Shown piece after piece: positions 7,936 to 63,439 of a stretch of 64,000 nucleotides of DNA. Each line of letters opens with the position of its first letter. Position 1 is the first letter of the stretch. The translations under genes were made by a program, and so were the position numbers. The stretch is from Octopus vulgaris (Eukaryota): NCBI GenBank assembly GCA_951406725.2, contig OX597821.1, positions 64,108,001 through 64,172,000 on the forward strand, in the 5' to 3' direction. The notes beneath the pieces were generated by a model. It made no database searches. It was not told the DNA's origin and was given only the letters and a program-made list of their open reading frames with translations.

Positions 7936-8085
7936 TATATATATATATATATATATATATATATATATATATATATATATATATATATATATATAATATT
8001 ATTAGAGACAAAACCACTATTTTGCAAAACAAACAAGGAAAGACTTAATCAATACATAAAATTTTAATAAAAAGTCAAAAAACCG

Positions 8086-8128
8086 CCACTACAATTGTTT
8101 CTTGTCCTGATCGACAATCTTCAGGTGG
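8086..8128 (-). ncRNA. Minimal type I hammerhead ribozyme (Penelope pLTR type)
   Basis: Minus strand reads ccac CUGAAGA uuguc-gaucag-gacaa GAAA c-aauu-g UA gugg; all three stems pair and stem III is palindromic (ACAAUUGU). Confidence 0.8.
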
Positions 8129-9165
8129 ACTTCCAATCTAAAATATCAATATTTTAAAATATAAAAATAATAATTTTAAAATAATTAAAGTATTAATTTT
8201 GACTTTTTATTAAAATTTTATGTATTGATTAAGTCTTTCCTTGTTTGTTTTGCAAAATAGTTGTTTTGTCTCTAATAATATTATATAATATTTTACTATA
8301 AAATTGGATTTAATCCTAAATCTGATTTTTTCCCTGTAAATTTGGATTTATTCCCTAATATTTATTATATATATATATATATATATGTATATATGTATGT
8401 ATATATATATGTATATCTTTATATATATATATATATATATATGTGTGTGTGTGTGTGTGTGTGTGTGTATTGAATTGTGGCACACGGTGCACCTGTACAA
8501 ATAATGTTGAATTGATGAAGAGAAAGTGAGCATATGTGGACATAAATATTTGATCGCTATGAACAAATCATCTGTATGGCTCTTCAGTAAGAGAATGCAA
8601 GACACTTTATTTCACGTTCCTCCAGTCCACTCACCTGGCAAAAATGAGAAGTAGCTATATTTTAAAGGGCCTGTCTTATCACACTGTGTCACGCTGAATC
8701 ACCCTGAAAACTATGTTAAAGGTACACGTGGCTATGGAGTGCTCAACTACGTGCACGTTAATTTCATGATCGGATCAACTGGAAGCCTTGCCAGCTCTCT
8801 CTCTCTCTCTCTCTCTATATATATATATATATATATATATATATCCGGCCATTTCAACATGTTGAACCGTTAATCTCTACACATTTTTGTCTCTCCCCAT
8901 TCATTTTCCTCTCGATATTTTCTGTCGAACATCGTAGGTTTGAAACGTCAAACACTTCGCAATTCTCCCCGATCGTTAAACTACTTTATCTGCTAGTTTT
9001 GCTGTTTCTACACCTGTCTTCATCTTTTGTTTCCTGTAAATTGAGATGTGTATGCTCTTGTGTGTATACATGATCGTTTGTTTATGTGTATAAGTATGTA
9101 ATTTTAAACGTATACTTTAACATAAGTATGTTTCTATGTTGTTCTATGTTGTGTGTGTGTGTGGT

Positions 9166-9540
9166 GACGCAATGGCCCAGTGGTTAGGGCAGCGGACTCG
9201 CGGTCGTAGGATCGCGGTTTCGATTCCCAGACCGGGCGTTGTGAGTGTTTATTGAGTGAAAACACTTAAAGCTCCATGAGGCTCCGGCATGGGGTGGTGG
9301 CGAACCCTGCTCTACTCTCACCACAACTTTCTCTCACTCTTTCTCCCTGTTTCTGCTGTACCTGTATTTCAAAGGGCCAGCCTTGTCACACTCTGTGTCA
9401 CGCTGAATCTCCCTCAGAACTACGTTATGGGTTAACGTGCCTGTGGAGTGCTCAGCCATATGCATGTTAATTTCATGAGCAGGCTCTTCCGCTGATCGGA
9501 TCAACTGGAACCCTTGTCATCGTAACCGATGGACTGTCAC
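9166..9540 (+). mobile_element. SINE family B, full length (tRNA-derived head, possibly tRNA-Arg)
   Basis: A box tggcccagtgg, B box ggtttcgattccc; homologous copies at 10453, 25883, 41043 and 58235. Confidence 0.9.
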
Positions 9541-10452
9541 ATTATATATATGTATGTGTGTGTGCGTTTGTGTGTGTGTGTGTGTGTGTGCGTGTGTGTG
9601 TGTGTGTGTGTGTGTGTGTGTGTGTGTGTGTGTATGTATGGGGAAGTGTTTGTGTTTGTGCAACCCACTGTACGAGCCAGTAAATTAACATTCGGCAAAA
9701 TAGAACGACAGGATAAATGCGTGTCTTCAAGATAATAGTGGAGTCGATTTGTTTGACTAAATCCTTGAAGACGGTGATCCAACATGGCCATACTCCAATG
9801 ATTGAAACAAGTTAAAAAATAATATATACTCGTATACAGGTCAACGTAATTTTCTTGTTGAGTCGGCGTATGCTTCTAAAGATCTGATATCATTTCAAAT
9901 TCATGTATGTACATGTATCTTTTTGCTCAATACTTCATTGAATACAAGTTCACTAAGTCACACACAGTATATTTTTCTTTCTTTCTCTTTGTTTTTCACT
10001 TTCTTTAACACATTTCTTCCTTTCTCTTTCACTCACACACTTTCACTCTTTCTTTCTCATTCTCTTTAATCTATATATTTCTTTCTCTATGTATCTATGT
10101 CCACTTAAAACCTTTGTTTATATATTTCTGTACCAGGTTTTTATCCAGCATAGGCGTGCAGAAAGATAAATATTATCTGTAGATGTCTTACTACAAAGAA
10201 GACAATTTCGTGAAGAAAAGGATATTTATTTGAAAAAGATAAACAAACAATGTAATGTGTAAATATGCGAATATATTAAATCTCATGCAAGGACGAGTCC
10301 CTGTTATATAAAGAAAAAAAAGTGCACATATAAACAAGGACATCAAGCTCGCACGTATACATACATACATACATACACAAATACATACATTAATACATAC
10401 ATGAACACATATATATTCATCTCTCCCTACATTCATACATGTACAGACACAT

Positions 10453-10847
10453 TGTGGCTCTCCGTCAGTTGCGACGAGGGTTCCAGTTGATCCGATCAAC
10501 GTAGCAGCCTGCTCCTGAAATTAACGTGTAAGTGGCAGAGCGCTCCACAGATACGTGTACCCCTTATGGTAGTTCTAGGGGAGATTCAGCGTGACACAGA
10601 GTGTGACAAGGCTGGCCCTTTGAAATACAGGTACAAGAAATACAGGTACAGAAACAGAAAGAAAGAGTGAGAGAAAGTTGTGGTGAAAGAGTACAGCAGG
10701 ATTCGCCATCCCTACCCTGCTGGAGTCTCGTGGAGTTTTAGGTGTTTTCGTTCAATAAATACTCACAATGCCTGGTCTGGAAATGGAAACCGCGATCCTA
10801 CGACCGCGAGTCCGCTGCCCTAACCACTGGACCATTGCAACTCCGCC
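10453..10847 (-). mobile_element. SINE family B, full length
   Basis: Reverse-complement homologue of 9166-9540. Confidence 0.9.
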
Positions 10848-11114
10848 ATGGATACATACATACATACATACATACATACATACATACATACATACATACA
10901 TACATACATACATGCATGCATTCCGTAAGTTTATCATTTAAATATTTGAGCATGTCTAGATATGCAACTATATGCATGAGAATACATCATAAAACAAAAC
11001 ATACAAATCTGTACATACATACATACCTACATACGTACGTACGTACGTACATACATACATGCATACATACATACATACATACATACATACATACATACAC
11101 ACATACATACAAAA

Positions 11115-60877: not shown

Positions 60878-61090
60878 AGAAGGAGTGCTGAAAAATTCCT
60901 AGCTTTAAAGGCATCACGAAAAGCCTAGTTGAAGCACCAAACTTTCGAGTTCTTTTACAGGACTTAGAAAAGCTGAACGTCAGTTGCAATAAGAGTGTGA
61001 ATCTGAGAGGAGAATATGTTGGATAAAATCTTAACAGATCCTCCTGTATTTTCTTTTATCCAAAGCCAGGAACTTTTCAGCACACTTTCG
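60878..61090 (+). mobile_element. Mariner-derived MITE retaining the transposase C-terminus
   Basis: TIRs agaaggagtgctgaaaaattcctagcttt / aaagccaggaacttttcagcacactttcg with TA flanks; FFLQDLEKL...NKSVNLRGEYVG*. Confidence 0.8.
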
Positions 61091-61573
61091 TACATTAAAG
61101 CGACCGGAAATTTCCATGTTGAATGGAGACATGCATATTTTTCTCTCTCCATCTGTTTTCTCTATTCAGTTCTTTCTGCAGGAAAGCATAGGCTCGAAAC
61201 ATCAAAGACTCCTTCCATTTTACCTAAGCGTCAAACTAATTACACCTTGTTCGTTTTTCTTTCACTTGTCTCAGTATTTTTTTTCTTTTTGTATATTTTT
61301 GTTTTATTTTTTAACCATATATACCATACATTCACCAGATCACCCTAATTTGATTCTACATGACTGAACTTCTTCCAATCTCGGACTCTCGTCTCCTTTC
61401 CGATCTACTTCTTGGACTTTCGTCACCTATCAAGAACCATTTTAACATCATCCAACCGAATTACTATGGTAGCTTTATGCCTCTCAGATTCAACCAACAT
61501 GGACTTTACAGTACACTGTTGTTGATATATATATATATATCTATATATATATATATATATATATATATATATA

Positions 61574-61948
61574 GGCGCAGGAGTGGCTGTATGGTAATTA
61601 GCTTGCTTACCAACCACATGGTTCCGGGTTCAGTCCCACTGCATGGCACCTTAGGTAAGTGATTTCTACTTTAACTTCGGGCCGACCAAAGCCTTGTGAA
61701 TGAATTTGGTAGACGGAAACTGAAAGAAGCCCGTCATATATATATTTGTGTATGTGTGTATCTGTGTGTGTGTCTGTGTTTGTCCGCCCACCATCGCTTG
61801 ACAACCGATATTGGTGCGTTTACGTCCCCGTCACTTAGCGGTTCGGCAAAAGTGACCGATAGAATATGGACAAGGCTTAAAAAGAATAAGTCCTGGAGTC
61901 GATTTGTTAAATGGCCGCAGTCAAGATAACTGAAACAAATAAAAGAAT
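61574..61948 (+). mobile_element. SINE family A
   Basis: Homology to the other A copies. Confidence 0.9.
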
Positions 61949-63220
61949 ATAAACCTACACACACACACACACACACACACACACACAAGTACCAGTGAAA
62001 CACTGGGGTCGATATAATCGACCCTCCCTTTTCCCAAAATGTCAGGCCTTGTATCTATAGTAGAAAGGATTATATATAAAAAGCACATTAACTGAAGAAG
62101 GTCACTCAGTACATTTAAGCAGTTCATCATATTATTTATATTTTCGTTTTCAACCTTATCATTGCAAATATTATAAAACTACATATGCAGTGCCGTTAAG
62201 TCGCGAGTTCGGTTTCCGGATTGAGCAGCGACATGTATCCCTTCGGAAGTCACTTCATTTTACGTTGGTCCAGTTCATAAAGCAGTAAGTAACTTGTGGT
62301 GGCCAAACCTTTATCAGACTATCAGACAGGCATCGCTTGCAGGGAGCCACTAAAAGCCGCTAATTCATATCTATCTATCTATCTATCTATCTATCTATCT
62401 ATCTATCTATCTATCTATCTATCTATCTATCTATCTATCTATCTATCTGTCTGTCTATCTGTCTGTCTATCTTTCTACCTATCTATCTATCTATCTCTCT
62501 ATCTATCTATCTAACTATTTATCTATCTGTCTGTCTGTCTATCTTTCTATCTATCTATCTATCTATCTATCTAACTATCTACCAATCTATTTGTCTTTGT
62601 CTGTCTGTCTATCTCTCTGTCTATCTATCTACACACACACACACACACACACACATACACACACACATACACACACACACAAACCGGCATTTCATCCGCC
62701 TCACGTTCTAATTTCAAATTCTGCTGAGGTCAACTTTGCCTTCCATTCTATCAGAGTGAATAAAATAAACACCATTTGAACACTGAGGTCGATGTGACCG
62801 ACTTATTCCCTCATCCGAAATTTCAGTATTTGGAAGCTGAAATTTTCACGAAATGAAAGCAAAAAAAAAAAAAAAAAAATTAGGAGGAGGAATTTTTATT
62901 AAATAAACGAAAGCGAAGCATTACGACGACCAAAGTACTTTTGAAGTTTTATTGAATAAAGTCATGCGAAGCTGTCGAACGGACATGTAAATAATTCAAG
63001 AAGGGAAAAAGAAATCCCTAACGAAGTTTTTTGACGAATACTTACACAAATCTGTCCTAATTAAGAGGCCTATCTGTAGAGGAAGTTATGCTCTGACATG
63101 GAATAAATAAAAATTTATATGAGACATTCTATTGTAAAAATTACCTGGCAACGACGGGCTATTCACCTAAAGCTAATATATATATATATATATTTATTTA
63201 TTTATTTATTTTATAGAAGG

Positions 63221-63271
63221 AGCTTCTACAGGACTAGAACTGTTTCATTCAAATGAAATCATCAGGAAGCT
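63221..63271 (-). ncRNA. Type I hammerhead ribozyme (mirror copy)
   Basis: Exact reverse complement of 63268-63318 within a perfect palindrome. Confidence 0.7.
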
Positions 63272-63318
63272 TCCTGATGATTTCATTTGAATGAAACAGT
63301 TCTAGTCCTGTAGAAGCT
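63268..63318 (+). ncRNA. Type I hammerhead ribozyme
   Basis: agcuuc CUGAUGA u-uuca-uu-ugaa-u GAAA cag-uucuaguc-cug UA gaagcu; 6-bp stem I, GUA site; stem II is weak, with a U-U closing pair. Confidence 0.7.
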
Positions 63319-63439
63319 CCTTCTATAAAATAAATTAATTTACTCTGCTATGTATTGAGTACCTTATTTACTGTGGTTAACCCCGACTCAACCCGGGACC
63401 TACATATACATATATATATATATATATATATATATATAC

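What the first reader, a model, noticed from the sequence alone, without database searches (positions are those of the whole stretch)
7991..63400. Recurring architecture: asymmetric palindromes in (TA)n, several with hammerhead cores
Seen: five inserts with no evident similarity to each other (7991-8365, 15358-15641, 16312-16549, 56697-56980, 63204-63400). Each sits in (TA)n and has a 60-120-bp inverted duplication with extra unique sequence on one side only. Three have recognisable hammerhead cores at or near the fold-back point. Known: Penelope-like elements carry minimal hammerheads in their pLTRs, often have an inverted partial pLTR, and favour AT-rich sites. Inference: these are ORF-less ribozyme-bearing insertion products, possibly non-autonomous retrozyme-like units, present at about one per 13 kb here.
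Basis: partly seen in the sequence, partly recalled or inferred. Interest (0 to 1): 0.75.

Follow-up and report, generated by a model that had tools for sequence, protein, structure and literature searches.

The report
Penelope stubs copied from RNA leader
The five mirror-image inserts are real stubs of five jumping-gene repeat families of a known kind, and in the family of one of them many stubs elsewhere in the genome lack an intron and stop at a likely transcription start, which suggests such stubs are copied from the front end of the element's own messenger RNA.

Summary
All five asymmetric palindromes are real and multicopy, with arms of 60-126 nt and one tail each. They are head-to-head, 5'-truncated ends (pLTRs) of Penelope-like elements in (TA)n. 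This layout is published, and this scan found it before in this genome. E1 and E5 match pLTRs that flank 841- and 712-aa ORFs; E3 and E2 link only to ORF fragments. Only E4 comes from an ORF-less, retrozyme-like 483-nt monomer, and this copy lacks the ribozyme. The palindromes form anew at insertion: joins vary, arms mirror family alleles (E5 239 of 240), and 48 of 51 pairs carry one tail. No E5 arm starts at the ribozyme cut site (0 of 133). Not found in print: in E1's family, 31 arms have the leader intron removed exactly at GT-AG, and 30 of these stop within a 23-nt first exon that begins at an initiator motif. In E5's family, 61 of 95 arms stop about 29 nt below a TATA box. The short stubs are therefore likely run-off cDNAs of the sense mRNA leader, primed at two sites. 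No RNA data were obtained.

The parts
7991..8197 (-). E1 tail-less arm, family positions -73 to about +135 (core C = 0): last 60 nt of the leader intron, acceptor, exon 2 with hammerhead
   Evidence: 99% to the L151 pLTR; intron assignment
8090..8124 (-). E1 minimal type I hammerhead: core starts 8124, palindromic helix III CAATTG, predicted cut after 8090
8138..8197 (-). Retained 3' end of the leader intron (acceptor AG at 8139-8138); this copy is of the unspliced class
8198..8365 (+). E1 tailed arm, about +46 to +214; tail about 8288-8365, which runs on into the 5' UTR and ATG in L151
15358..15519 (-). E2 tailed arm (tail 15358-15386); degenerate core CUGAAGA...GCAA from 15512
15516..15641 (+). 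E2 tail-less arm, starting inside the core (first C missing)
16312..16440 (-). E3 tailed arm (tail 16312-16373), truncated within the ribozyme
16440..16549 (+). E3 tail-less arm from -14; core starts 16454, GAAA at 16492-16495, first helix I pair broken in this copy
56697..56890 (-). E4 tailed arm (tail 56697-56830), 3' part of a 483-nt ORF-less monomer; the family hammerhead lies about 150 nt beyond the truncation point
56901..56960 (+). E4 tail-less arm
63204..63272 (-). E5 tail-less arm with complete hammerhead (core 63265, predicted cut after 63227)
63267..63400 (+). E5 tailed arm: AAGCTT join, complete hammerhead (core 63274, predicted cut after 63312), tail 63336-63400
   Evidence: identical 197-nt copies at 5 other loci

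Best explanation
The five inserts are head-to-head pairs of 5'-truncated Penelope-type terminal repeats (pLTRs) in (TA)n, each with one tailed and one tail-less arm, and the short ones are likely run-off cDNAs of the 5' leader of the element's sense RNA. Shown: family membership, the two fixed 3' ends, joins that vary between copies, mirrored alleles, intron-less arms that end in a 23-nt first exon (E1 family), and a sharp 5' wall 28-29 nt below a TATA box (E5 family). Inferred steps: (1) the RT-endonuclease nicks both strands of a TA tract; (2) each 3' end primes reverse transcription on the same RNA, one at the tail site and one at the tail-less site; (3) when these sites lie in the mRNA leader, synthesis runs off the 5' end just upstream of the hammerhead; (4) the two cDNA ends are joined by microhomology (AGCT/AAGCTT in E5). 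Long, intron-keeping arms, including E1's own long arm, would come from priming on unspliced or 3'-pLTR RNA. The ribozyme sits near the join because it lies at the start of the mRNA, not because it cut. E4 would be made by the same machinery acting in trans on an ORF-less tandem or circular 483-nt RNA.
For: Links: the E1 arm is 99% identical to both pLTRs around an 841-aa open frame in L151. The E5 pLTR and tail run into an ATG and a 712-aa frame, followed by a second pLTR, in L362. E3 has an endonuclease-end fragment 0.9 kb upstream in L253. One tail per pair: E5 48 of 51, E1 36 of 39, E2 34 of 34, E3 60 of 61, E4 23 of 26. Mirrored alleles: E5 239 of 240 against 33% discordance on shuffling; E2 100 of 107; E3 transversion site 52 of 56 against 50%. 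The exact E5 join occurs in 7 of 51 pairs and in three haplotypes. E5 wall: 61 of 95 arms stop at -10..-1, and 5 of 34 in the next 50 nt; a TATAAAT-like box at about -35 in 30 of 30 long arms. E2: 7 of 44 arms at -9..-1, none at -10..-68, TATAAAA at about -36. E1: 30 of 31 spliced arms stop within 23 nt, 24 of 26 unspliced arms run more than 120 nt (Fisher p 1e-12); the wall is the A of TCACTT; the two donors match subfamily genotype; no pair mixes spliced and unspliced arms. In vitro two-site initiation, extension of both strands and use of uncleaved RNA: PMC11167929.
Against: There is no RNA evidence: splicing, start sites and cleavage are read from DNA copies only. E3's 5' ends spread over -37..-3 with no sharp wall and no shared exon. 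The window's own E1 copy keeps the intron end, and E4 stops far 3' of any wall, so neither is a leader run-off. The E5 wall coincides with a short palindrome and with the base of helix I, so microhomology or structure may sharpen it. One spliced arm (L432) runs 109 nt past the junction, and one donor-1 arm has the haplotype whose donor reads GA. 4 of 56 E3 pairs disagree at a transversion site. Pfam detects neither RT nor GIY-YIG in the L151 and L362 proteins. No intact partner was found for E2, E3 or E4. The samples are the first part of one contig, found with exact-match patterns, which favours young copies.
Confidence: 0.75

Rival explanations
1. Fold-back self-priming: one cDNA folds on itself and copies itself. 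Arkhipova et al. 2013 proposed self-priming on an antisense template, which would also explain intron retention.
For: It predicts mirrored alleles and short palindromes at the join, both seen. Proposed in PMC3846280.
Against: Exact GT-AG intron removal in 31 arms requires a sense, spliced template. A fold-back makes the tail-less arm a subset of the tailed arm, yet in E5 the tail-less arm is longer at the 5' end in 9 of 48 pairs and the tailed arm in 10. Later deletion of palindrome centres could mimic this. Tail-less arms also occur alone (11 of 31 arms scored as single, some with a short missed partner).
Confidence: 0.13
2. Each palindrome is a non-autonomous unit (retrozyme- or MITE-like) that is copied whole from a master.
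For: E5 has at least 40 full-length 197-nt copies at 99-100% identity. E2 and E3 also return 40 of 40 near-full matches. E4's family is ORF-less.
Against: Those lists are selected by the query. One-arm and pattern samples show variable joins, the exact E5 join recurs in three haplotypes with both arms mirrored, and either arm can carry the longer 5' part.
Confidence: 0.06
3. The template is the 3' product of hammerhead cleavage, so the join marks the cut site.
For: Cores lie at or near the join in E2, E3 and E5.
Against: 0 of 133 E5 arms start at +37..+41 (cut at +39); most keep the whole core. PMC11167929 found uncleaved RNA to be the main template.
Confidence: 0.03
4. Library or assembly fold-back artefact.
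For: E4 and E5 arms are nearly perfect; no independent contig spans a whole element with its flanks.
Against: Arms differ by up to 8% in E2 and 6% in E3; tails are one-sided; there are thousands of dispersed arms; a contig of run X2 crosses an E5-family join with 35 and 49 letters on the two sides (a family copy, not necessarily this locus; X2 may or may not be the source sample).
Confidence: 0.01

Closest known systems
Inverted 5'-truncated pLTR structures with a one-sided tail in EN+ Penelope-like elements (Adineta Pen2a, PMC3846280; PMC8557442 Fig. 2 legend)
   Same: Head-to-head arms, palindromic join, one tail, AT-rich or (TA)n targets, hammerhead in the pLTR.
   Different: Here the stubs are only 200-375 nt, tails reach 62-134 nt, and many stubs in E1's family are intron-less with a fixed 5' wall, which points to a sense template.
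Poseidon_Ac (PAc) in vitro system (PMC11167929)
   Same: Two internal reverse-transcription starts define the tail; both strands are nicked and extended; uncleaved RNA is the template.
   Different: The text I read (parts 1-2 of 4) does not treat inverted stubs or leader run-off in genomes. The E1 and E5 proteins carry a Cys cluster before the nuclease (Neptune-like, tentative).
Penelope of D. virilis and Chlamys-3_cRei, with start site in the pLTR and a 5' UTR intron (PMC2377424, PMC8557442; PMC4209133 for the intron ending at helix I)
   Same: Short first exon, then a leader intron that ends just before the hammerhead.
   Different: Genomic copies are described as keeping the intron; here the short copies have lost it.
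Metazoan non-LTR retrozymes (PMC7229834; bioRxiv 10.64898/2026.07.22.740005)
   Same: E4's family: ORF-less monomer, type I hammerhead, head-to-tail junctions, Penelope footprint.
   Different: Monomer 483 nt (150-450 cited); no full dimer seen; circles and cleavage untested; the other four inserts are not of this kind.

Membership tests
EN+ Penelope-like element (E1, E5 families) | [quoted passage not shown] | tested here: met
   L151 (841-aa frame) and L362 (712 aa) lie between pLTRs; YRDD and YIG..R motifs seen directly; 770 homologues, one of the top 120 with PF00078. Pfam itself gave no RT or GIY-YIG hit.
EN+ Penelope-like element (E2, E3 families) | pLTRs flanking one RT plus GIY-YIG ORF | tested here: inconclusive
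   E3: nuclease-end fragment upstream in L253, 41% to the L362 protein. E2: only an RT-thumb piece inside one copy (L259).
EN+ Penelope-like element | Hammerhead motif in the pLTR | tested here: met
   E1 and E5 pass the descriptor; E3 family GAAA box in 62 of 78 arms; E4 family has one upstream; E2's is degenerate.
EN+ Penelope-like element | Tail at one end, inverted 5'-truncated copy, AT-rich target | tested here: met
   3' ends run into (TA)3 in 122 of 137 (E3), 80 of 88 (E2), 45 of 61 (E4) and 47 of 52 (E1) arms.
EN+ Penelope-like element | Target-site duplication | not testable with these tools
   Hidden in (TA)n; empty alleles are needed.
EN+ Penelope-like element | Intron retention in genomic copies | tested here: inconclusive
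   Long E1-family arms keep the intron (26); short ones have lost it (31).
Neptune clade | Zn-finger-like Cys motif between RT and nuclease; RT phylogeny | tested here: inconclusive
   Cys cluster seen in L151 and L362; no reference tree was built.
Non-LTR retrozyme (E4 family) | ORF-less monomer with type I hammerhead in head-to-tail repeats | tested here: met
   25 of 25 junction-selected loci; monomer 483 nt; longest ATG frame 36 aa. Of all 27 exact tail matches, 5 run on into the next monomer and none into other shared sequence.
Non-LTR retrozyme (E4 family) | At least two consecutive hammerhead-bearing units | tested here: inconclusive
   No array of two full units among 25 plus 27 loci; the search was not exhaustive.
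Non-LTR retrozyme (E1, E5) | No coding partner in cis; tandem monomer | tested here: not met
   The tails continue into an ORF.
Non-LTR retrozyme | Self-cleavage and circular RNA | not testable with these tools
   No run on record as RNA was listed.

The most novel reading that the evidence does not exclude
Penelope stubs are a genomic record of the element's own mRNA 5' end. Twin priming at two leader sites copies the spliced leader to its start. Penelope therefore uses sense RNA and does make intron-less copies, but these are dead ends. Only priming on a downstream, unspliced pLTR gives long copies, which would explain intron retention and let start sites and leader introns be mapped from DNA alone.
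Probability: 0.6. Interest if true: 0.7.

Novelty: new variant of a known kind. Interest (0 to 1): 0.52.

Why it matters
How Penelope-like elements form inverted ends and keep introns is an open question: PMC8557442 calls the significance of intron retention unknown, and PMC3846280 left sense versus antisense template undecided. Intron-less stubs that stop at an initiator argue for a sense template and two priming events. They give exact, cheap predictions (start sites, a splice junction, two priming sites), and young families with open frames are at hand. The architecture itself is ordinary.

Tried and rejected
Rfam found no hammerhead. The generic inverted-repeat scan was swamped by (TA)n. 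A one-arm DNA search for E5 returned nothing, so patterns were used. The first E3 concordance run gave 55% discordance because alignments ran into the TA flank; sites beyond +90 were dropped, giving 155 of 199 concordant. My density routine found only 2 of the 5 window elements, so its counts were discarded; 'one per 13 kb' is untested genome-wide. No shared first exon was found for E5, E2 or E3. An untemplated cap G at the walls could not be told from the partner arm. Snap-back on helix I was rejected: no arm starts at +39. No RNA holder was listed, and no RNA run was laid. The protein atlas gave no answer. One paper on dimeric PLE hammerhead variants (Lunse et al., recalled) is not held. Seven arms of a related family in the E1 sample (apparent end at -5) were left out of the splice counts.
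Full report
Setting. The window is G000:C8:64108001-64172000 in a 2.8-Gb, TA-rich animal genome. 'Octopus' is my recall and the wording of earlier scan notes, not a tool result. E1-E5 are the five inserts in order. Positions with a sign count from the first C of the hammerhead core.

Observation. All five inverted repeats, one-sided tails and (TA)n flanks are present. Arms are 89, 126, 67, 60 and about 69 nt. The elements do not resemble each other. Hammerhead cores pass my descriptor in E1 and in both arms of E5, with 1 hit in 30 shuffles. 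E3 is a damaged copy, E2 carries a family-wide GCAA box (48 of 52), and E4 has no core. Rfam recognised none. E5's helix II starts with a U-U pair; an axolotl ribozyme with a U-U pair there still cleaves (PMC7229834 passage).

Families. Each insert has hundreds to thousands of candidate relatives (449-1997 at first look, 40 scored each). Exact patterns count 2826 arms for E1's family and 2647 for E5's. E1 is 99% identical to the pLTRs around an 841-aa open frame in L151, and its tail continues into the 5' UTR. E5's pLTR and tail lead to an ATG and a 712-aa frame with a second pLTR behind it in L362. The RT and nuclease motifs are seen directly; Pfam missed them, and a homologue search gave 770 proteins, one of the top 120 with PF00078. 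E3 is tied to a nuclease-end fragment 0.9 kb upstream (L253). E2 is tied only to an RT-thumb piece in one copy. E4 differs: its tail runs into the start of a 483-nt monomer with a hammerhead and no ORF, in 25 of 25 junction-selected loci and 5 of all 27 exact tail matches. That family is retrozyme-like; no full dimer was seen.

Made anew at insertion. Full-length queries return look-alikes by construction, so I used one-arm queries and patterns. For E5 I fetched the places of the first 100 of 2647 matches: 133 arms, 82 insertions, 51 head-to-head pairs, 48 with exactly one tail; 2 were a duplicated locus with a broken tail and 1 had two tails. Arms of one insertion share family alleles in 239 of 240 cells, against 33% discordance on shuffling. 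The exact 197-nt join occurs in 7 pairs and three haplotypes. The other families agree: E2 100 of 107, E4 21 of 25, E3 155 of 199 after dropping sites beyond +90 that had aligned into the flank. Both arms therefore come from one source, and the palindrome is not copied as a unit.

Where the arms stop. No E5 arm starts at the cut site (0 of 133 at +37..+41; arms shorter than the pattern are invisible). Instead 61 of 95 arms that reach the core stop at -10..-1, and only 5 of 34 in the next 50 nt. This is 28-29 nt below a TATAAAT-like box present in 30 of 30 long arms. E2 shows the same pattern weakly (7 of 44 at -9..-1, none at -10..-68, TATAAAA at about -36). E3 does not: its ends spread over -37..-3.

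The spliced leader. For E1's family I fetched 91 of the first 100 of 2826 matches. Many arms leave the L151 sequence at -13, just after TTTTAG, and continue with sequence that lies 1.13 kb upstream in L151, directly before a GT donor. Two donors four bases apart are used. Copies whose donor reads GTAAGTATGT (L445, L450) share the +17 allele of 22 of 23 donor-1 arms; copies with GAAAGTATGT can use only the second GT, and arms retaining GAAA exist. Of 31 spliced arms, 30 end within 23 nt of the junction (four at exactly 23); of 26 unspliced arms, 24 run more than 120 nt (p 1e-12). Position 23 is the A of TCACTT, an initiator-type motif (established knowledge; PMC3846280 notes TCACT in a pLTR). 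Where both arms reach the acceptor, 8 pairs are spliced/spliced, 2 more are so by eye, 6 are unspliced/unspliced, 1 has an arm ending in exon 2, and none is mixed. The window's own E1 arm keeps 60 nt of intron.

Mechanism. Shown: two fixed 3' ends, one per arm; a shared source; exact intron loss; 5' walls. Inferred: both nicked strands prime on one RNA at the two sites described in vitro for PAc (PMC11167929), synthesis runs off the mRNA start, and the ends anneal at microhomology. Against a single fold-back: in E5 the tail-less arm is longer in 9 of 48 pairs and the tailed arm in 10, though later deletion of palindrome centres could mimic this. An antisense template (PMC3846280) cannot give the spliced arms. 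Long intron-keeping arms likely come from unspliced or 3'-pLTR RNA; why that RNA stays unspliced is unexplained.

Artefact check. Diverged arms, one-sided tails and dispersed copies exclude a fold-back artefact. One contig of run X2 crosses an E5-family join; none spans a whole element. No RNA evidence was obtained.

Literature. Read: PMC3846280 parts 1-4 of 5; PMC11167929 parts 1-2 of 4; PMC4209133 parts 1-2 of 4 (it already notes paired minimal hammerheads on opposite strands 100-700 bp apart); bioRxiv 10.64898/2026.07.22.740005 part 1 of 5 and passages; passages of PMC8557442, PMC2377424 and PMC7229834. Six searches listed no paper on intron-less, start-site-bounded Penelope stubs. Subscription papers (such as the 2003 intron paper and the 2006 survey, known to me only from citations and recall), Repbase entries and all supplements were not seen and may bear on this. 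Earlier scan notes report the same architecture in this genome; none listed mentions leader splicing with a start-site wall, though one reports splicing of a Penelope acceptor onto host exons.

Verdict. The architecture is real and known; the retrozyme reading holds for one of five. The added value is DNA evidence that short stubs copy the sense mRNA leader. Interest 0.52.

Noticed in passing
window 5121-5396 (-): Metazoan SRP RNA match, 72 bits, above the gathering score; gene or pseudogene not decided.
   Followed up: no
window 14335-15324 (-): 5'-truncated Penelope/Poseidon-type ORF (329 aa, GIY-YIG E 5e-7) ending in the same TA tract as E2, with 58-nt repeats at 13809-13918 downstream.
   Followed up: partly
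window 54909-54976 (+): Hammerhead core with a 47-nt helix II region and CAATTG helix III, about 190 nt into a single-arm insert beside (TA)n.
   Followed up: no
window 30105-30131 (-): Minimal hammerhead in a short single-arm insert between TA tracts.
   Followed up: no
window 63670-63730 (+): Hammerhead-like motif with a CCGAUGA box and CAGCTG helix III, seen by eye; it did not pass the descriptor.
   Followed up: no
window 31518-32294 (-): 258-aa C-terminal part of a non-LTR retrotransposon ORF (weak zf-RVT hit).
   Followed up: no
window 44300-45316: Cluster of opposed SINE-like copies giving 76-79% inverted repeats, not in (TA)n.
   Followed up: no
L340: A Poseidon-type element nested inside an E5-family inverted insertion.
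   Followed up: partly
L202, L227, L228, L330: Stubs of different families share one TA tract, which suggests repeated targeting of the same sites.
   Followed up: no
L151 ORF residues about 510-570: Asparagine-rich stretch between RT and nuclease, recalling the N-rich inserts of Adineta Penelopes (PMC3846280).
   Followed up: no
E2 family: Second hammerhead box is GCAA in 48 of 52 arms, yet the family spread widely: a dead or variant ribozyme.
   Followed up: partly
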